From Shigella phage SHSML-45, in the sequence record KX130863: 64,000 nucleotides of DNA; one strand, 5' to 3'. Positions 37,598 to 44,866 of this stretch are shown here, in pieces. Each line of letters begins with the position of its first letter. Within the stretch, counting starts at the first letter, position 1. The notes under the pieces are model-generated. The model did not search any database, was not told the DNA's origin, and worked only from the letters and a program-made list of their open reading frames with translations. The translations under genes were made by a program, and so were the position numbers.

Positions 37598-38739
37598 AAG
37601 AAATCTCCAAATTCATTACCCAGATCTTTCAGAGTATCAGTAGAGGTTTCGGTGACTTGACCTACACGATATGCTGCACCAATCTGGATTTCTTGTGGAG
37701 CAGGCTGTAAAGAAGTGGTATCCAGCCAGTTCATGATCCACGGAATGGGGTTCTTGGTGATTACTGGTAAATGACTAGGCCATTCTACACCGATGTGCAT
37801 AAATGCATTACGCCCCACAAAGTACAGATATTCTTCTAGAAGTTCTGCGTTCAAGCCAATCAGACTACGACCTTTGAAAATGAAATGACCCCATTCAATT
37901 TCAGTTTTCAGAGTTTTCAGGAGCTGTGCTGGTGCTTTAGCCACTGCTTCATCCACCAGATCTTTGTCAAACTGCTGGAACATAATCTGGATGATTGCTT
38001 TAGACATCTGAGTGTGCAGAGCTTCATCTTTAGCGATTAATTGCAGATTTTTAGCAATACCTTGCAGAATATCGTTCTCTGCTAACGCAAAGGTACATGC
38101 AAAGGATGCATAGAACTGCATTGCTTCCAGACCGTAGATTGCAAAATAAGCGTCTAATAACTTAGCCTGGGTTTCACGTTTAACTTCAGGAAACTCTGTT
38201 TCTGGGTAAGTATTATCACCACGATGATCGCGTACTGCGATGAAATACTGACCTAACTGGTATAGTTCATCGAACAGTTCAACAGAATCAGCGATACGTG
38301 CAAATGCTTCTTGGTTTTTAGTTACAGAATCAATAAATTCTGCTGGATCAGTCAGCACATTACGAATAATATTACTATATGCACGGCTATGCAGATCTTC
38401 GAAGTAGCTCCACTGCTTGAGCATACCTTCCAATTCTGGACGACTTACAAGTGGCATAATAGCTGCTTCAGGCGCTCGACTGATAAAGGAATCAGTTTGA
38501 GTCTGCCATGCTAAATTCAGAAGTGTAATTTCCTGAATTTCACGTGGGAGATTAGGCCATTGTTTCTTATCTGCTTCCAGACTGATTTCAGTTTCAGTCC
38601 AAAATTGAGAGCGAGCTAATAACGCCAGCCTTTCTAGCTCTGGATGGGCTACCCTTACATAGTCTGCAATACCAAGTGAATCACCCAGGAAAAGATCTGG
38701 ATTAGTATGATCCCATTTTAAATTAAGTAAAGTTGTCAT
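37594..38739 (-). CDS. nrdB: ribonucleotide reductase class Ia small subunit
   Basis: 381 aa, adjacent to nrdA, Glu/His-containing helices typical of R2. Confidence 0.75.
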   Translation of the reverse strand: MTTLLNLKWDHTNPDLFLGDSLGIADYVRVAHPELERLALLARSQFWTETEISLEADKKQWPNLPREIQEITLLNLAWQTQTDSFISRAPEAAIMPLVSRPELEGMLKQWSYFEDLHSRAYSNIIRNVLTDPAEFIDSVTKNQEAFARIADSVELFDELYQLGQYFIAVRDHRGDNTYPETEFPEVKRETQAKLLDAYFAIYGLEAMQFYASFACTFALAENDILQGIAKNLQLIAKDEALHTQMSKAIIQIMFQQFDKDLVDEAVAKAPAQLLKTLKTEIEWGHFIFKGRSLIGLNAELLEEYLYFVGRNAFMHIGVEWPSHLPVITKNPIPWIMNWLDTTSLQPAPQEIQIGAAYRVGQVTETSTDTLKDLGNEFGDFL

Positions 38740-39263
38740 TAGTTCTCCTGTTTATCTGTGTTTCTAAGTAGTGTTGGGTCTTTGGTTATAGAGAGAATTA
38801 AAGAATCTCGATACTCTATCGCCTCTTCTAGAGTTGGGAGAGTTTTCACATATTCTTTTCCGTTAATGTATTTTCTAACTTGAAATCCAGACCCTTTCTT
38901 CCGAATATTCTTAGTACCCAATATATTGTTTTTACTGGTTTTTCTATTTTGACTATTTAACTGCCAGTCTGCTTCTCTTAGATTAGTCCACTTATAGTTT
39001 AGTGAATCTCCATCTATATGGTCAACCATAATTTTAGGTAAGTTTCCTGTCATGTACAGGAAAGCAATATTTTGTGCGGGATACTTCTTACCCTTGATTT
39101 GTATTACTAAGTCTTTTCGGTTAGGATCTACTGAGTGTGGTTTTAAACAGCCAGCAGGTAGTCCTCTTACTTTATTATGTACTTCCTGGTTATTTAACCA
39201 AGTAAATGTTCCTTCATCTGGATTATACTCCAGAATCCTTTTTAATTCATCTTGTGTTATCAA
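38739..39263 (-). CDS. HNH homing endonuclease between nrdA and nrdB
   Basis: Conserved MITQ..LEYNP N-terminus; IAFLYMTGNLPKIMVDHIDGDSLN motif. Confidence 0.8.
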   Translation of the reverse strand: MITQDELKRILEYNPDEGTFTWLNNQEVHNKVRGLPAGCLKPHSVDPNRKDLVIQIKGKKYPAQNIAFLYMTGNLPKIMVDHIDGDSLNYKWTNLREADWQLNSQNRKTSKNNILGTKNIRKKGSGFQVRKYINGKEYVKTLPTLEEAIEYRDSLILSITKDPTLLRNTDKQEN

Positions 39264-39328: not shown

Positions 39329-39366
39329 AAAGAAAAAAGGAGACCCGAAGATCTCCTTGTTTTTAT
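39329..39366. terminator. bidirectional terminator hairpin
   Basis: AGGAGA-loop-TCTCCT stem flanked by A6 and T5 runs. Confidence 0.55.
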
Positions 39367-42300
39367 TATAACTGACAGCCTCCTGATGCACAGCCTACTG
39401 CTTCTTCACCAGCTCCACCACCATTTTCAGTATTAAAATTAGCATAATACCAAGTTTTTATACCATACTTAACAGCGATCATGAAGTCACGAACTACTAC
39501 TGGGCCTGGAATGATTTCATTCTCGAATTTAGAGTAGTCATAATACGACTGGAAGCTTGAAGACTGATTCAGGAACTTCTGGTAAACAGCATTCCACTTA
39601 ATATACTCTACCCTATCAATGTCATAAGCCAGTTTATAGCTCATTAATGTATCCCAATCAGTTGCACCTGGAGCAATTGCAATTACTTTATTCACTGCAC
39701 TACCCTTGATAGATACGATCTTACGGGGCGGTTCGATAGAGTTAGTAACACCTAGCAGTACAGAGGAACTTTCACCTGGCATCTGAGCAGTCAGAACAGA
39801 GTTGCGCATACCATATTTCAGAATATCTGCACGCAGAGATTCCCAATCCATTTCTAGACCTACAGTTACCAGTTCATCAACAGTTTTCTTGTACGTGTCG
39901 ATTACCAGAGTTCCTTGCGAAGGCTTAGTACGATTAAACCAGTCACATGCACCTTGTTCTTTAGCCAGACGTACAGAGGCTTTATGTAGGAAGTAGGACA
40001 GCTTTTCAGCTTCACGGTGAATCCAGTTACGGGCTTCAACACCTTCGTAAGCCAAACCTTCTGCTGCCATTGCACCTGCTGCGTTCATCAGACCAATACC
40101 AACGTTACGACGTTTCTTAGCCGTGTACTCCATAGTTGGGAATGGGTAATCCTGAATCTCGATGATTGTATCAACGAATTTCAGAAGAATGTAGCAAGTT
40201 TTCTCCCATTCAGCCAGAGATTCCATACGACCTAGTACAACACCACCTAAGTTACACAGAGATACTTCACCAATATCTTCTGGACGCATATCGTCTAACT
40301 GATCTTGGGTCTTATACAGCTCCATAATGTGATGGAATGGACGGGTTGGCTGAGTAATTTCAACACAAAGGTTGGTCATACGAATCGGGTCAAGGAAGTT
40401 ACCATGACGGTTAGATTCACCAATGTGATGAGCATACATACGCCCTGTTTCCATACGGATACGTAACCAAGTATCTAGGATTTCTTTTGCAGAGATTCTA
40501 GGAGCTGCTGGAATTGTTTTTCCTTCGTGGTCGATCTTTGTAAGAGAAGCCACACGTTTCTCCGCTGCCACGTAGATTTCTTCAAACTTAGCCTCATCTT
40601 CGCCATAAAACGCTTCATGAACTTCTGGTGCGTAGAAGTATGACATTAGCGTAATATCTTCATTTTTCAGATAACGTTTTAACAAAAGATTGTTGAAGCT
40701 CAGAGAATAATCCATCTTATCGATTTTATTCTCGTCTGTAGCACGTTGTTGCTTAACCTGCATCAACTGGATGATTTCAGGGTCAAAGTAAGGATAGGAT
40801 ACAGTAGCAGAACCACCACGGCTATTACCACAGACTATGGTATGCCCGTTACGGCGCACTACTAACTTATTGGTGGGTACTTCCACACAATAAACTTTAC
40901 CAATATACTCAACTTCAGTTTCCTTGATACCCTCTGCTGTCATATCTAGTTGGTCAAAATAGACATAGCAACGGTCTTTAGTGCTTGTATTTGAGCGTAA
41001 TCCAGCAATTGCTGCTAGAGCCTGCACCACATGTTGTTGCCCTGCGTGGCTTGAGTATTCTCCAACATTTTCGGATTTCCAGTACCCATCCCACTCCATG
41101 ATTTCTTTCAATGCTTCTTTCGCAGCATTAGATGTTAAATCCTTCTCTAGCAGGAAAGATAAGTCTTTCGAATAGTATAGCTGCCCATGCCCAATATGAA
41201 TGGTAGTTACACCTTGTTCATTTAGCTTCTTAGAATATTTAAGACCTAAATCATCTAGGATATGTACTAAACGATCTACCTTGCGTTGCTTTTTAAATCC
41301 GAAACGATACGCTCTACCTGTATTTGTTTCTACGATTGAACCATCAGCCTGCAATGCAATACGGAAGCGGTCTAGCATGGTGATAGTATCAGTACCATTT
41401 GTTTTCTGCGCTGAACCAAAATCTAGTGCATGGGTTCTTTTTGGTTGCCAATCTTCTGCTAGGATTTTCTGATACCCAGGTTTACGTTGGATATTCTTAT
41501 TATTATACGATACTTGACGGTATACCATAGTATGGTTAGGGGTTACTAGAAGATCTACCCCTCTTTTCTCGAAACGTAACATTGTACCTTCGTAATCATA
41601 CTCGAACACATTAAGAGGTAATACCCATTCTAACCCCCTACTATCAGTAATCTGAGCGACTAACTCATCTCCAGTAAGTTCTGAGAATAACTTCCAACCA
41701 TTCTTAGTTAAGACTTCAGTATCCTCGGAGTAGCACTGTTGGGTATTTGCCTTTACTGAGCGGTCAATGTGTCGATAATATGGCAGTTTTCCGGAATGCG
41801 GGAATGCCCCATTTCGCACCGGATCAGCAATTGATCGGCTTTCAAGATGATACCCGATTCCCGCTCTGGCTGCGACCATTTTGAAGACGATGTGCTCGGC
41901 TGTGTCGATTGAATCCAACGTGTCAGTGGAATCCACGAGGCAGCAACTAGCAAATCCACGGTCACTAGAACGCAAACCAACCAGTGGCGGCGTAGGAACG
42001 TTGATTTTGTGGAGCGACATTGCATTGTAGAGATCGATTGCATCTAGAATTGTCCAGTTGGGTTGAGATAACATCGCCATTGCCATGCCCATATAGGCAA
42101 ATTGCGGGGTTTCGTAAATTTCACCAGTGGCTATATTACGACGGGAATATTTATCAAAGAACTGTTTCAGTCCACCACTAGTAAAAAGACGGTCACGATC
42201 GTGGTCTATAACCTGATTCAGAGCTTCAAATTGCTCATCGGTAATCCATGCACTCATGTCTTCCCATGCACCTACACTAACCATATGATCGTGGAAGAAG

Positions 42301-42608
42301 CGTAGAGAAGGTGGTTCGAAGGAATCATAAAGGCGTTTACGCATCTGCGCAAGACGTAATTCCTTTGCTGGCACGTCGTATGCTGGATTATCTTTAATAA
42401 GACTTTCGGCAGCTTTAATTAACGCATCCATCAGAGTATCGGAATCTACAACCCCTTTAGGCAGAGTTTTTTGAGCAGCCATAGTAATGGCTGACCAACT
42501 TACATCAACTGTTTTGCAGCCATACTCTGCCCAACCATTGAGTTTTTCAGGAGCAAAGTCTTCTACAGTACCGTCACGTTTAATTACTTTTTCAATGCGA
42601 TGGCTCAT
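39366..42608 (-). CDS. nrdA: ribonucleotide reductase class Ia large subunit, intein-containing precursor
   Basis: ATP-cone N-terminus, NLCVEI active-site motif, C-terminal Cys pair; ~300-aa insertion with intein blocks; start set to second Met (RBS AAAGGAAAA) rather than track start 42668. Confidence 0.85.
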   Translation of the reverse strand: MSHRIEKVIKRDGTVEDFAPEKLNGWAEYGCKTVDVSWSAITMAAQKTLPKGVVDSDTLMDALIKAAESLIKDNPAYDVPAKELRLAQMRKRLYDSFEPPSLRFFHDHMVSVGAWEDMSAWITDEQFEALNQVIDHDRDRLFTSGGLKQFFDKYSRRNIATGEIYETPQFAYMGMAMAMLSQPNWTILDAIDLYNAMSLHKINVPTPPLVGLRSSDRGFASCCLVDSTDTLDSIDTAEHIVFKMVAARAGIGYHLESRSIADPVRNGAFPHSGKLPYYRHIDRSVKANTQQCYSEDTEVLTKNGWKLFSELTGDELVAQITDSRGLEWVLPLNVFEYDYEGTMLRFEKRGVDLLVTPNHTMVYRQVSYNNKNIQRKPGYQKILAEDWQPKRTHALDFGSAQKTNGTDTITMLDRFRIALQADGSIVETNTGRAYRFGFKKQRKVDRLVHILDDLGLKYSKKLNEQGVTTIHIGHGQLYYSKDLSFLLEKDLTSNAAKEALKEIMEWDGYWKSENVGEYSSHAGQQHVVQALAAIAGLRSNTSTKDRCYVYFDQLDMTAEGIKETEVEYIGKVYCVEVPTNKLVVRRNGHTIVCGNSRGGSATVSYPYFDPEIIQLMQVKQQRATDENKIDKMDYSLSFNNLLLKRYLKNEDITLMSYFYAPEVHEAFYGEDEAKFEEIYVAAEKRVASLTKIDHEGKTIPAAPRISAKEILDTWLRIRMETGRMYAHHIGESNRHGNFLDPIRMTNLCVEITQPTRPFHHIMELYKTQDQLDDMRPEDIGEVSLCNLGGVVLGRMESLAEWEKTCYILLKFVDTIIEIQDYPFPTMEYTAKKRRNVGIGLMNAAGAMAAEGLAYEGVEARNWIHREAEKLSYFLHKASVRLAKEQGACDWFNRTKPSQGTLVIDTYKKTVDELVTVGLEMDWESLRADILKYGMRNSVLTAQMPGESSSVLLGVTNSIEPPRKIVSIKGSAVNKVIAIAPGATDWDTLMSYKLAYDIDRVEYIKWNAVYQKFLNQSSSFQSYYDYSKFENEIIPGPVVVRDFMIAVKYGIKTWYYANFNTENGGGAGEEAVGCASGGCQL
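40824..41735 (-). mobile_element. intein (304 aa) with LAGLIDADG-type homing endonuclease domain inside nrdA
   Basis: Starts CYSEDTEVLTKNG (block A), TPNH (block B), LAGLIDADG-like ALQADGS, ends ..GN followed by Ser; flanks rejoin to conserved R1 sequence. Confidence 0.65.
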
Positions 42609-42950
42609 TTGGTTTTCCTTTTTATAGTTATCAGGATTTAGGAAATAGTTTACTTTATTCTCAGTCATTTGGCAAATAAAATTTCTGATAGAAAAGGCCC
42701 GAGTATTTTCATACCCAGGCCTCCTGTGTTGTCAGTCTAGTTTTTGGCCACTTAAGTTCTCAGCAGAATATCTATTGAGGTACTTAGTTCATTATAATTG
42801 AAGGGCCGATTTGGATTTGAGGTTACAATTTTCCACGCTAGGGTAGTCTTAGGACTTTCTTCCCCTTCCTTACGTGTAATCATATTAGCAGCACTCAGTG
42901 AAGTACGATGTATTTTAGTTTTACGGTGTAGATGTACGACGTTTCCCATA

Positions 42951-43945: not shown

Positions 43946-43974
43946 TTGACATAGTGGATAATGTTTAGTATAAT
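43946..43974 (+). promoter_or_regulatory. sigma70-type promoter (TTGACA-N17-TATAAT) for the plus-strand block
   Basis: Perfect consensus hexamers with 17-nt spacer. Confidence 0.65.
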
Positions 43975-44002
43975 AGGTGTAAAAATTCTGTGGAGAAGTG
44001 GA

Positions 44003-44866
44003 ATGCCGAAAAAATTAACTCAAGAAGAAGTAGATAAATGCCTAGCCGAGCGTGGTTTTACTATGGTGGATAAGCCATATCAAAATTCTAGGTATAGGCA
44101 TACGTATCAGTGTGAATACGGTCACCAATGGACAGCTAAATTTGACGCTATTAGGAATGGAAAGACCAATTGTCCTACTTGCTCTATTAGTAGCCGTAAA
44201 CTAGATATTGATAAAATTAATACTATATTACAGGACAGAGGTATTACATTGTTGAACGGCTATAAAAATAGTGCCGATATAAATACTAAATTTAGGTGTG
44301 TTTGTGGTCATGAGTGGGCTACTACACTTAATAGTATAATTAATAGAGGTAGTGGCTGCCCATCTTGTGCTGCTAATAAACAGAAACTTAGTGTTAATAC
44401 TATAAATGATCGTCTTGCTGCCAGAAATATCAGAATAGTGGGTGAGTATAGTAATGCGAATACTAAGACCGCCTTTCTTTGTGGTGCAGGGCATAGGTGG
44501 GAAGCTACTCCAGGGTCTGTATTAAGGGGGAACGGTTGTCCTTACTGTAGTTATAGAGATTTAGAAAGTACTAGGATATATGTTATGTATAGCCCCTCAC
44601 ATGGGGTTAAAATAGGTAGGTCTAACAATCCAGAGCGTAGACTTCTACATATTAGATCTAGTAGCCACCTTATTGATTTGGAAATAATTAAAGTATTTGA
44701 AATTGGGGAATATAGTAGTGCAGTTCGAATAGAAAAATTAGCCCATAACTACTTTAAAGAGCAGAATTGCCAGTACAAAGATTTTGACGGCGCTACGGAA
44801 TTCTTCAATATTGAACCAAAAGTAGCTATAAAGTTTATCGAGGAAATAATCAATGACAGAGAATGA
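44003..44866 (+). CDS. zinc-ribbon repeat protein with C-terminal T5orf172/GIY-YIG-like domain
   Basis: Four C-x2-C..CP-x-C repeats then IYVMYSPSHGVKIGRSNNPERR-type domain; start at Met with GGAGAAG RBS. Confidence 0.6.
   Translation: MPKKLTQEEVDKCLAERGFTMVDKPYQNSRYRHTYQCEYGHQWTAKFDAIRNGKTNCPTCSISSRKLDIDKINTILQDRGITLLNGYKNSADINTKFRCVCGHEWATTLNSIINRGSGCPSCAANKQKLSVNTINDRLAARNIRIVGEYSNANTKTAFLCGAGHRWEATPGSVLRGNGCPYCSYRDLESTRIYVMYSPSHGVKIGRSNNPERRLLHIRSSSHLIDLEIIKVFEIGEYSSAVRIEKLAHNYFKEQNCQYKDFDGATEFFNIEPKVAIKFIEEIINDRE

What the first reader, a model, noticed from the sequence alone, without database searches (positions are those of the whole stretch)
40824..41735. In-frame intein with LAGLIDADG-like endonuclease splitting the RNR large subunit
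The nrdA ORF is ~1080 aa, about 300 aa longer than a typical class Ia R1. The extra segment begins with Cys in a block-A-like CYSEDTEVLTKNG, has a block-B-like TPNH, a LAGLIDADG-like ALQADGS and a possible second motif AAIAGL, and ends ..VVRRNGHTIVCGN followed by Ser. The flanks (..VKANTQQ / SRGGSATVSYP..) rejoin to the conserved R1 region equivalent to E. coli VKSCSQGGVRGGAAT. The penultimate residue is Gly rather than the usual His, so the C-terminal junction is the least certain part.
Basis: partly seen in the sequence, partly recalled or inferred. Interest (0 to 1): 0.6.

Follow-up and report, generated by a model that had tools for sequence, protein, structure and literature searches.

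The report
Known intein in phage RNR gene
The large-subunit ribonucleotide reductase gene of this T5-like Salmonella phage is interrupted in frame by a 304-residue self-splicing intein carrying a LAGLIDADG homing endonuclease, but this same intein, with the same boundaries, was already reported for phage Shivani in 2015.

Summary
On the minus strand, window 40824-41735 encodes a 304-aa in-frame insert (Cys1...Asn304, then Ser) inside nrdA, the class Ia ribonucleotide reductase (RNR) large-subunit gene. About 436 T5-like phage records have the uninterrupted site (ANTQQ|TRGG). Only six records carry the insert (Shivani x2, SLGBLB0002, SG_WM_RUS_R2, SP3 x2).

An AlphaFold model (pLDDT 88.5) matches solved endonuclease-bearing inteins (TliVMA, PI-SceI, PI-PfuI). 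A family profile hits them by sequence, with E down to 3e-12. The insert lies in specificity loop 2, between the equivalents of E. coli G295 and G296.

- The second LAGLIDADG motif is KEIMEWDGY (Asp216), not AAIAGL.
- The penultimate Gly is the family norm (34 of 35 relatives). The mycobacteriophage Bethlehem RDF intein, a distant homologue, also has it and splices experimentally.

dN/dS of 0.08 against the SP3 allele points to a functional element.

It is already published. The 2015 Shivani genome announcement gives boundaries Cys292-Asn595, identical to these. Splicing and endonuclease activity of this particular intein have not been tested. One small open point is a conserved Cys at block F position 4, a class 3 hallmark, alongside Cys1. 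Interest is low.

The parts
39366..42668 (-). nrdA ORF (class Ia ribonucleotide reductase large subunit precursor). It is 1100 aa from the first ATG. The annotated start at 42608 gives 1080 aa, and the end coordinate includes the stop codon.
   Evidence: ORF list. Pfam Ribonuc_red_lgC E=5e-110 in two stretches and TIGR02506 E=4e-168. Shivani annotation.
41736..42608 (-). N-extein, NrdA residues 1-291, ending ...VKANTQQ.
   Evidence: Alignment with intein-free EscoHU1 NrdA and coordinates.
40824..41735 (-). Intein, 304 aa, from Cys1 (NrdA Cys292) to Asn304 (NrdA Asn595).
   Evidence: Translation. Clean 304-codon gap in intein-free alleles. Codon numbering 292-595, equal to the published boundaries.
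41451..41735 (-). N-terminal lobe of the Hint splicing domain (about residues 1-95), including block A CYSEDTEVLTKNG.
   Evidence: All-beta in the AF2 model. Foldseek and profile matches to the AceL NrdHF mini-intein and to the Hint part of VMA inteins. TIGR01445 intein_Nterm over residues 1-70, E=0.026.
41526..41555 (-). Block B, DLLVTPNHTM, with Thr65 (B:7) and His68 (B:10). Position B:12 is Met70, not Trp.
   Evidence: Thr65 in 41 of 42 and His68 in 42 of 42 family sequences.
41397..41438 (-). Low-confidence linker (residues 100-113) between the Hint lobe and the endonuclease domain.
   Evidence: pLDDT below 50 for residues 100-113.
40980..41384 (-). LAGLIDADG homing-endonuclease domain (about residues 118-252), a monomeric two-motif type. 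Its last predicted strand runs on to about residue 262.
   Evidence: The AF2 secondary structure shows the alpha-beta-beta-alpha-beta-beta(-alpha) unit twice. Foldseek hits to I-Tsp061I, I-SceI, I-DmoI and WhiA. The family profile hits PI-PkoII and I-Tsp061I. Pfam LAGLIDADG_3 matches 8 of 13 family members, but only E=0.15 for this sequence alone.
41340..41378 (-). First LAGLIDADG helix, MLDRFRIALQADG, with catalytic-position Asp131 followed by Gly132.
   Evidence: Helix 120-131 in the model. The position is Asp or Glu in 33 of 34 aligned relatives and Gly follows in 34 of 34.
41085..41132 (-). Second LAGLIDADG helix, SNAAKEALKEIMEWDG, with Asp216-Gly217. This is the true second motif.
   Evidence: Helix 202-216 in the model. 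Asp216 in 34 of 35 and Gly217 in 33 of 35 aligned relatives.
40998..41015 (-). It is part of a later helix (231-243) of the endonuclease domain, not a LAGLIDADG motif.
   Evidence: Model and family alignment.
40824..40979 (-). C-terminal lobe of the Hint domain (residues 253-304; residues up to about 262 still belong to the endonuclease's last strand).
   Evidence: Beta strands 271-285, 291-295 and 298-302, and the family alignment.
40851..40898 (-). Block F, KVYCVEVPTNKLVVRR. Position F:4 is Cys283, where class 1 inteins commonly have Asp.
   Evidence: Cys in 33 of 37 aligned relatives. Block numbering follows PMC2807308.
40824..40844 (-). Block G, HTIVCGN: G:5 Cys302, G:6 Gly303 (penultimate), G:7 Asn304 (the cyclising residue).
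   Evidence: Gly303 in 34 of 35 and Asn304 in 33 of 34 aligned relatives.
40821..40823 (-). +1 nucleophile, Ser (AGC). The six sampled intein-free alleles have Thr (ACC or ACT) here.
   Evidence: Junction table.
39369..40823 (-). C-extein, SRGGSATVSYP... to the C-terminus. Ligation with the N-extein gives a 776-aa NrdA.
   Evidence: The spliced sequence aligns end to end with E. coli R1, E=1e-141.

Best explanation
This is a bifunctional class-1-type intein inserted in frame in nrdA of a Shivani-like T5-like phage (Tequintavirus).

Proposed mechanism. The gene is translated as a 1080-aa precursor. The two lobes of the Hint domain (residues 1-95 and about 253-304) fold together and remove the intein in four steps: Cys1 performs an N-to-S acyl shift; Ser+1 attacks the resulting thioester; Asn304 cyclises and releases the intein; an O-to-N shift then joins ...ANTQQ to SRGGSAT.... 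The product is a 776-aa NrdA with an intact specificity loop 2.

The nested two-motif LAGLIDADG domain (about residues 118-252, Asp131 and Asp216) is the element's mobility function. In a mixed infection it would cut an intein-free nrdA near the insertion point, and repair from the intein-bearing copy would then copy the intein in (homing).

Shown here: the in-frame insert, the precise empty site, the fold, the catalytic residues, the family relationship, the insertion position and purifying selection.

Inferred: that this copy actually splices and that its endonuclease is still active.
For: - Presence/absence. The 304-codon insert is precise: about 436 phage records have a contiguous site and 6 carry the insert.
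- Catalytic residues. Cys1, Thr65-x-x-His68, Asn304 and Ser+1 are all present and are conserved in the family.
- Fold. The AF2 model has pLDDT 88.5. Its best Foldseek matches are TliVMA, PhoVMA, PI-SceI and PI-PfuI inteins over the whole length, AceL NrdHF for the Hint part, and I-DmoI, I-SceI and I-Tsp061I for the endonuclease part.
- Sequence profile. The family profile hits PI-PkoII at 3e-12, TliVMA at 7e-11, AceL NrdHF at 1.5e-9 and PI-SceI at 4.5e-7.
- Mobility. Full-length homologues sit inside RNR alpha and beta subunits, DNA polymerase, PhoH, primase, ThyX/thymidylate synthase, DNA methylases and terminase. That distribution marks a mobile element.
- Insertion site. The same loop-2 site is occupied by diverged inteins in Staphylococcus phage Romulus NrdE (35% identity) and in an uncultivated virus NrdA (30% identity).
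- Experimental precedent. The Bethlehem RDF intein aligns end to end (E=1e-9) and has the same Cys at F:4 and the same Gly-Asn|Ser C-terminus. It splices completely, and its endonuclease was toxic in E. coli.
- Selection. dN/dS against the SP3 allele is 0.076 overall: 0.07 and 0.02 in the Hint lobes and 0.11 in the endonuclease domain.
- Need for removal. The insert splits loop 2 (E. coli residues 292-301) between the equivalents of G295 and G296, so the host enzyme needs it removed.
- Prior report. The published announcement and the GenBank note for Shivani describe the same intein.
Against: - No experiment on this intein was found in the library searched.
- The single sequence scores below the curated cut-offs of every Hint, intein and LAGLIDADG model: TIGR01445 15.5 vs 24.5 bits, PF14528 12.7 vs 22.5, PF01079 12.6 vs 29.7.
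- It lacks the penultimate His. It also lacks the block F His that 17 relatives have, carrying Asn289 instead.
- At 304 aa it is the shortest of the full-length relatives compared (318-373 aa). It lacks their K-x-I-P motif. These points raise doubt about endonuclease activity.
- It is rare among T5-like phages.
- All six sampled intein-free alleles differ from the intein-bearing flanks at four positions around the insertion point, so they may not be cleavable.
Confidence: 0.93

Rival explanations
1. The intein still splices, but its LAGLIDADG domain is no longer an active nuclease. It would then be a vertically inherited passenger in a small Shivani/SP3 lineage, late in the homing cycle.
For: - The endonuclease domain is unusually small (about 135-145 aa), and the whole intein is the shortest of the full-length relatives compared.
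- The LAGLIDADG_3 score is below threshold.
- The family's K-x-I-P motif is missing.
- Only 6 of about 442 T5-like records carry the intein.
- No intein-free record has the Shivani-type healed site.
Against: - Both catalytic-position aspartates (Asp131, Asp216) and their following glycines are retained.
- The full double alpha-beta-beta-alpha-beta-beta topology is predicted with high confidence.
- dN/dS in the endonuclease domain is 0.11, though this rests on only 14 substitutions.
- The endonuclease core is the most recently shared part between the Shivani and SP3 alleles (dS 0.12 against 0.8-2.4 in the Hint lobes). This fits recent exchange of an active module.
Confidence: 0.35
2. The intein does not use the plain class 1 route. 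Under this reading the conserved Cys283 at block F:4 takes part in the chemistry. It could act as a class-3-like branch nucleophile, or it could form a redox-sensitive disulfide with Cys1 that gates NrdA maturation.
For: - Cys at F:4 occurs in 33 of 37 relatives, and Cys or Ser at G:5 in 32 of 36. Cys F:4 and Thr G:5 are two-thirds of the class 3 WCT signature.
- The best single-sequence PDB hit is a class 3 intein, AceL NrdHF, but only weakly (E=0.19).
- Three inteins with the WCT triplet and an N-terminal Ser or Cys are on record.
Against: - Cys1 is present in 41 of 42 relatives.
- Position B:12 is Met, Leu, Ile or Val (His in two relatives), never Trp.
- The homologous Bethlehem RDF intein was analysed as a class 1 intein.
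- The allele at the same RNR site in an uncultivated virus has Ser at F:4, and two relatives have Asp.
- Grafting WCT onto a class 1 intein did not give class 3 splicing.
Confidence: 0.08
3. The insert is not removed. It would be a tolerated native domain of this NrdA, or an in-frame free-standing endonuclease gene or intron ORF rather than an intein.
For: No protein-level data exist for this phage. The single-sequence HMM scores are sub-threshold.
Against: - The insert has a complete Hint fold wrapped around the endonuclease domain, with intact splice-junction residues.
- It interrupts loop 2 between the residues that read effector and substrate.
- About 436 relatives and E. coli R1 lack it.
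- There are no stop codons or frame changes of the kind expected for an intron ORF.
Confidence: 0.02

Closest known systems
Salmonella phage Shivani NrdA intein (Genome Announc 2015, PMC4342426; GenBank KP143763, AJA73533.1, 'contains intein splice site')
   Same: The intein protein is 100% identical and sits in the same gene, at the same site, with the same boundaries (Cys292-Asn595). The alleles of SLGBLB0002 and SG_WM_RUS_R2 are also 100% identical, and the SP3 allele is 93% identical.
   Different: The window comes from a separate isolate, 98.7-98.9% identical to Shivani and SLGBLB0002 over 22 kb. Its nrdA has two synonymous differences from Shivani. The announcement gave boundaries only. 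It reported no domain analysis, insertion-site mapping or experiment.
Mycobacteriophage Bethlehem RDF (phosphoesterase) intein, characterised in Kelley et al. 2016 (PMC5050341)
   Same: It is a distant homologue over its full length (E=1e-9, 21% identity). It shares Cys1, T-x-N-H, two LAGLIDADG motifs, Cys at F:4 and the Gly-Asn|Ser C-terminus. It splices completely with the native penultimate Gly, and splices more slowly after G316H. Its endonuclease was toxic in E. coli.
   Different: The host protein and phage group are different, and G:5 is Thr rather than Cys. Its behaviour is a precedent, not a measurement on this intein.
Inteins at the same RNR loop-2 site in Staphylococcus phage Romulus/Remus NrdE (class Ib) and in IMG/VR UViG_3300026382_000017 NrdA
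   Same: The insertion position is the same: ISQG|STRRG and WNQK|SARVG against NTQQ|SRGG. They share the architecture, the +1 Ser and the ...GN C-terminus, with 35% and 30% identity.
   Different: They are highly diverged alleles in unrelated phages. Romulus has His where this intein has Asn289 and has Asp-Ala in its second motif. The uncultivated-virus allele has Ser at F:4.
Solved endonuclease-bearing inteins PI-SceI, TliVMA/PhoVMA, PI-PfuI and PI-PkoII
   Same: They share the two-domain architecture of a Hint domain with a nested two-motif LAGLIDADG nuclease. Foldseek E = 6e-12 to 1e-4 with TM 0.5-0.6 on the query, and profile E down to 3e-12.
   Different: Sequence identity is only 7-14%. 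Those inteins are 360-540 aa with extra DNA-recognition regions, whereas this one is compact at 304 aa. The host proteins also differ.
Class 3 inteins (MP-Be DnaB, MchDnaB1, AceL NrdHF)
   Same: Both have Cys at block F:4 and a small nucleophilic residue at G:5, and both are linked to phages.
   Different: Class 3 inteins lack an N-terminal nucleophile and have Trp at B:12. This intein has Cys1 and Met70.

Membership tests
Intein (Hint-domain protein-splicing element) | An in-frame insertion in a host protein that is absent from orthologues, with the flanks rejoining to the conserved host sequence. | tested here: met
   There is a clean 304-codon gap in EscoHU1, UTK0010, Stitch, EC100, T5 and chee24. 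About 436 records have a contiguous site. The spliced sequence aligns to E. coli R1 at E=1e-141.
Intein (Hint-domain protein-splicing element) | Splice-junction residues: Cys or Ser at position 1, block B Thr-x-x-His, C-terminal Asn, and Cys, Ser or Thr at +1. | tested here: met
   Cys1, Thr65/His68, Asn304 and Ser+1 are present and conserved in the family.
Intein (Hint-domain protein-splicing element) | Penultimate His (block G:6). | tested here: not met
   The residue is Gly303. This is not a strict requirement: Gly occurs in 34 of 35 relatives, and the homologous Bethlehem RDF intein splices with Gly.
Intein (Hint-domain protein-splicing element) | Hint fold. | tested here: met
   The AF2 model (pLDDT 88.5) gives Foldseek hits to VMA inteins, PI-SceI, PI-PfuI and AceL NrdHF. 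The family profile hits them by sequence. The single-sequence HMM scores are sub-threshold.
Intein (Hint-domain protein-splicing element) | Actual protein splicing: excised intein plus ligated exteins. | not testable with these tools
   Splicing is inferred from intact residues, dN/dS of 0.076, disruption of the essential loop 2 and the homologue that splices.
LAGLIDADG homing endonuclease (monomeric, two-motif) | Two LAGLIDADG helices, each ending in an acidic residue followed by Gly. | tested here: met
   Helix 120-131 ends in Asp131-Gly132 and helix 202-216 ends in Asp216-Gly217.
LAGLIDADG homing endonuclease (monomeric, two-motif) | Duplicated alpha-beta-beta-alpha-beta-beta-alpha fold. 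| tested here: met
   The secondary-structure order in the model fits. Foldseek hits I-Tsp061I, I-SceI, I-DmoI and WhiA.
LAGLIDADG homing endonuclease (monomeric, two-motif) | A match to the curated family model above its threshold. | tested here: inconclusive
   PF14528 gives E=0.15 and 12.7 bits against a 22.5-bit cut-off for this sequence, but 8 of 13 family members match at up to 1.6e-10.
LAGLIDADG homing endonuclease (monomeric, two-motif) | Site-specific cleavage of the intein-free allele, and homing. | not testable with these tools
   The evidence is only indirect: sporadic distribution, a junction-restricted flank signature, and the same site occupied in unrelated phages.
Class 3 intein | No Cys, Ser or Thr nucleophile at position 1. 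| tested here: not met
   Cys1 is present here and in 41 of 42 relatives.
Class 3 intein | The WCT triplet: Trp at B:12, Cys at F:4, Thr at G:5. | tested here: not met
   The triplet here is Met70, Cys283, Cys302. Only the F:4 Cys matches (definition).
Class Ia RNR alpha subunit (host protein NrdA) | Full-length similarity to NrdA, including the active-site cysteines and loop 2, after removal of the insert. | tested here: met
   TIGR02506 scores 560.8 bits against a 341-bit cut-off. The sequence aligns to E. coli R1 residues 7-760, including the C225 and C439 equivalents.

The most novel reading that the evidence does not exclude
This phage intein family carries Cys1 together with a conserved Cys at block F:4, Cys or Ser at G:5 and Gly at G:6. 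It could be a mechanistic intermediate between class 1 and class 3 inteins. Alternatively, it could be a redox-gated intein in which a Cys1-Cys283 disulfide holds back maturation of RNR. In either case the element would act as a conditional switch on deoxynucleotide supply rather than as a pure parasite.
Probability: 0.08. Interest if true: 0.5.

Novelty: already known. Interest (0 to 1): 0.15.

Why it matters
The finding matters little beyond correct annotation. The 1080-aa product should be annotated as an NrdA precursor that yields a 776-aa enzyme plus a 304-aa intein endonuclease. The analysis here adds some context to the published one-line description:
- The insertion point lies inside specificity loop 2 of RNR.
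- Unrelated phages carry diverged inteins at the same site.
- The true second LAGLIDADG motif is KEIMEWDGY.
- The penultimate Gly is a family trait with an experimental precedent.

A compact 304-aa intein with a noncanonical C-terminus, natural target sites in hundreds of sequenced T5-like phages, and a culturable phage-host pair would be a convenient system for studying intein homing in lytic phages.

Tried and rejected
- Plus-strand reading of the coordinates gives stops throughout, so the feature is on the minus strand.
- Single-sequence HMM searches (Pfam, NCBIfam) and a phmmer search of PDB gave only sub-threshold hits: 0.026 for intein_Nterm, 0.1 for Hint, 0.15 for LAGLIDADG_3 and 0.19 for 6zgq. 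The link to known inteins had to come from the family profile and the predicted structure.
- AAIAGL as the second LAGLIDADG motif was rejected.
- Class 3 membership was considered because of Cys at F:4. It was rejected because Cys1 is present and B:12 is not Trp.
- A search for a close donor found nothing closer than 35-41% identity outside the T5-like group in the phage collection, the protein database or IMG/VR. No relative was found in the bacterial and archaeal genome set using the peptide patterns derived from this sequence.
- A search for an intein-free allele with Shivani-type flanks found none. The best was 91.7% identical over 84 nt.
- Tori and Perler 2011 (PMC3133030) is not held in the library.
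- A search for papers on inteins in Tequintavirus RNR returned nothing.
- The Silviavirus papers found mention a DNA polymerase intein, not the RNR one.
- The distance between Cys1 and Cys283 could not be measured, because model coordinates are not exposed.
Full report
**What is there**

The finding's coordinates are exact, but the feature is on the minus strand. The plus-strand reading is full of stops. Window 40824-41735 (-) reads through as 304 codons, CYSEDTEVLTKNG...VVRRNGHTIVCGN, and the next codon is AGC, Ser. It lies inside a single ORF, 39366-42668 (-). That ORF is 1100 aa from the first ATG and 1080 aa from the start annotated in the closest GenBank record. Pfam and NCBIfam identify the ORF as a class Ia ribonucleotide reductase (RNR) alpha subunit, with the barrel domain matched in two stretches on either side of the insert (PF02867 E=5e-110; TIGR02506 560.8 bits against a 341-bit cut-off).

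**Source of the window**

The window comes from a Shivani-like T5-like phage (Tequintavirus).
- The nrdA gene is 99.9% identical to Salmonella phage Shivani, with two synonymous differences.
- A 22-kb stretch is 98.7-98.9% identical to Shivani and vB_SLGBLB0002, so this is a separate isolate of the same group.

**Presence/absence**

- Megablast of nrdA finds 445 T5-like phage records. Six cover the whole query: Shivani x2, SLGBLB0002, SG_WM_RUS_R2 and SP3 x2. The listed remainder match at 71-72% coverage in two pieces.
- tblastn with the insert alone finds the same six records at 93-100% identity and nothing else above 36%.
- An 84-nt 'healed' junction finds 436 records that cover at least 80% of it contiguously. 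These are intein-free alleles.
- A protein alignment with EscoHU1 NrdA shows ...VKANTQQ|TRGGSAT... with a clean 304-residue gap.
- At the DNA level, five intein-bearing and six intein-free alleles share identical insertion boundaries.

**Is it an intein?**

On its own the sequence scores below every curated threshold: TIGR01445 intein_Nterm E=0.026, Pfam Hint 0.1, LAGLIDADG_3 0.15, and PDB 6zgq 0.19. Several independent lines settle the question.

1. *Mobility.* PHROG families of intein-bearing RNR, thymidylate synthase and PhoH match the insert at 6e-33 to 9e-14. Homologues from the protein database and the phage collection sit inside ThyX, GTP cyclohydrolase I, peptidases, NrdD, methyltransferases, DNA polymerase, primase, the RNR beta subunit and terminase. 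The same module in unrelated host proteins is the signature of a mobile element.
2. *Family consensus.* A family alignment shows the canonical blocks: CY..TEVLT..GW (block A), DLLVTPNH (block B), two ...[DE]G LAGLIDADG motifs, VYCVEVP...VRRNG (block F) and [CS]GN followed by Ser, Cys or Thr (block G).
3. *Sequence profile.* A profile of 13 trimmed family members hits PI-PkoII (3e-12), TliVMA (7e-11), AceL NrdHF (1.5e-9), I-Tsp061I (1.9e-9) and PI-SceI (4.5e-7). Eight of the 13 members hit Pfam LAGLIDADG_3 and five hit Intein_splicing.
4. *Predicted structure.* An AlphaFold2 model built on a 42-sequence alignment is confident (pLDDT 88.5, pTM 0.86), apart from a linker at residues 100-113. Its best Foldseek matches in the PDB are:
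   - endonuclease-bearing inteins over the whole length (TliVMA 6e-12, PhoVMA, PI-SceI, PI-PfuI);
   - a mini-intein for the Hint part;
   - I-Tsp061I, I-SceI and I-DmoI for the middle domain.

**Anatomy (intein numbering)**

| Element | Residues | Notes |
|---|---|---|
| Hint N-lobe | 1-95 | Cys1; block B Thr65 and His68 |
| Linker | 100-113 | low model confidence |
| LAGLIDADG domain | about 118-252 | duplicated alpha-beta-beta-alpha-beta-beta topology; last strand runs to about 262 |
| First motif helix | 120-131 | RIALQADGS, Asp131-Gly132 |
| Second motif helix | 202-216 | KEIMEWDGY, Asp216-Gly217 |
| Hint C-lobe | 253-304 | block F KVYC283VEV; block G HTIVC302-G303-N304 |

The proposed second motif, AAIAGL (241-246), is a later helix of the endonuclease domain. 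The true second motif is the one ending in the family-conserved Asp216-Gly217.

**The penultimate Gly**

The junction is fixed by the empty-site alignment. Gly at this position is also the norm for the family, occurring in 34 of 35 aligned relatives.

Kelley et al. 2016 reported that mycobacteriophage class 1 inteins often replace the penultimate His by Gly, Lys or Ser. They showed that the Bethlehem RDF intein, with native Gly316, splices completely, and that the G316H mutant accumulates precursor. I retrieved that protein. Its 317-aa intein aligns end to end with the present one (E=1e-9). It shares Cys1, T-x-N-H, Cys at block F:4 and the Gly-Asn|Ser C-terminus. So there is an experimental precedent within the same broad family.

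**Insertion site**

The spliced 776-aa sequence aligns to E. coli R1 residues 7-760 (E=1e-141). By my count on that alignment, Gln290 corresponds to E. coli Gln294, Gln291 to Gly295, Ser+1 to Gly296, and the following Arg to Arg298. The intein therefore lies inside specificity loop 2 (E. coli residues 292-301), between the residues that read the effector and the substrate. The precursor cannot have a normal loop 2, so the host enzyme depends on excision.

The same position is occupied by two diverged inteins in unrelated phages:
- a 35%-identical intein in the class Ib NrdE of Staphylococcus phage Romulus and its relatives (ISQG|STRRG);
- a 30%-identical intein in the NrdA of an uncultivated virus (WNQK|SARVG).

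Loop 2 is thus a recurrent intein homing site in phage RNRs.

**Is it functional?**

Against the SP3 allele (93% amino-acid identity), dN/dS is 0.076 overall. It is 0.07 and 0.02 in the two Hint lobes and 0.11 in the endonuclease domain, though the endonuclease value rests on only 14 substitutions. All splicing residues and both catalytic-position aspartates are intact. That supports a splicing-competent element and is compatible with an active nuclease.

Several points argue for caution on the nuclease:
- The domain is small, and the intein is the shortest of the full-length relatives compared (304 against 318-373 aa).
- The family's K-x-I-P motif is missing.
- The intein is rare, in 6 of about 442 records.
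- All six sampled intein-free alleles differ from all five intein-bearing alleles at positions -13, -4, -1 and +2 around the insertion point. The +2 change turns Thr into Ser at the +1 residue.
- No intein-free record has the Shivani-type flanks.

This junction-restricted signature fits short co-conversion from the original donor, adaptation of the +1 nucleophile, or both. It also leaves open that circulating intein-free sites are poor substrates.

**Mechanistic class**

Cys283 occupies block F:4, where class 1 inteins commonly have Asp. Cys at F:4 is the nucleophile of class 3 inteins, which are defined by the absence of a position-1 nucleophile plus the Trp(B:12)-Cys(F:4)-Thr(G:5) triplet.

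In this intein and its relatives:
- Cys1 is present in 41 of 42 sequences.
- B:12 is Met, Leu, Ile or Val (His in two relatives), never Trp.
- F:4 is Cys in 33 of 37.
- G:5 is Cys or Ser in 32 of 36.

Two of the defining class 3 features are therefore not met, and I file the intein as class 1 by sequence. The homologous RDF intein was treated the same way. A role for Cys283, either as a redox partner of Cys1 or as an auxiliary nucleophile, is not excluded. It is weakened by the Ser at F:4 in the uncultivated-virus allele at the same RNR site.

**Novelty**

The GenBank record for Shivani annotates this CDS as 'contains intein splice site'. The 2015 genome announcement states that the RNR alpha subunit is interrupted by an intein with boundaries Cys292 and Asn595. 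These are the codons found here, and the intein protein is 100% identical.

The finding is therefore correct but already known. This analysis adds the domain map, the loop-2 location, the recurrent use of that site in other phages, the corrected second motif, the family context of the penultimate Gly, and the selection estimate.

Noticed in passing
L003:5293-6312 (Salmonella phage SP3 nrdA): SP3 NrdA (1422 aa) carries a second, unrelated 340-aa intein, CVAPETK...GILAGN|CVEITQP. It is inserted directly before the Cys equivalent to the E. coli thiyl-radical Cys439 and has a clear LAGLIDADG_3 match (E=2e-13). The window's nrdA lacks it.
   Followed up: partly
window 38739-39263 (-): A 174-aa HNH homing-endonuclease ORF (PF13392 E=1e-7; phrog_99 E=3e-45) sits between nrdA and nrdB. 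It is present in Shivani, SLGBLB0002 and SG_WM_RUS_R2. It is absent from EscoHU1, SP3, UTK0010, Stitch and EC100, where nrdB follows nrdA directly.
   Followed up: partly
window 43961-44866 (+): A 301-aa ORF between phoH and nrdD has three DUF4379 treble-clef zinc-finger repeats, a CapR homology domain and a C-terminal T5orf172/MUG113 domain. It is annotated 'endonuclease' in SP3 and SG_WM_RUS_R2 and is absent from EscoHU1. Together with the intein and the HNH gene, this gives three putative selfish elements within about 6 kb of the nucleotide-metabolism cluster.
   Followed up: partly
window 40824-41735 (-) compared with L003 (SP3): Divergence between the window and SP3 inteins is mosaic. The endonuclease core is nearly identical at the DNA level (dS 0.12, several 20-codon windows with 0 differences). 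The two Hint lobes are heavily diverged at synonymous sites (dS 0.78 and about 2.4). The 60 extein codons just upstream are almost identical. This suggests recombination within the intein.
   Followed up: partly
window 40821-40823 and 41736-41750 (-), the junction flanks: All five intein-bearing alleles, including the window, differ from all six sampled intein-free alleles at positions -13 (A/T), -4 (A/G), -1 (G/A) and +2 (G/C, Ser against Thr at +1). For EC100 and chee24, these four plus two neighbouring positions (-7 and +3) are the only differences within 120 nt, apart from one window-specific base at -25. No intein-free record in the phage collection has the Shivani-type flanks.
   Followed up: partly
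L004 (Staphylococcus phage Romulus, 2057-5969): The Romulus nrdE gene carries the loop-2 intein and is also broken downstream. The annotated CDS ends shortly after ...NSNLCKNLHL*, is followed by free-standing homing-endonuclease and HNH genes, and then by a 'similar to RNR alpha' segment. This fits intron-type interruptions near the thiyl-radical Cys.
   Followed up: no
L015:1108-3426 (IMG/VR UViG_3300029288_000819): A terminase large subunit carries a family member of this intein, NPEKIK|CYHPDTDIF...ISWCGN|STEW, which also has the Gly-Asn C-terminus.
   Followed up: no
window 42609-42668 (-): The nrdA ORF extends 20 codons upstream of the start annotated in Shivani (MTENKVNYFLNPDNYKKENQ-MSHRIEK). 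EscoHU1 is annotated from even further upstream, so start-codon annotation is inconsistent among T5-like phages.
   Followed up: no
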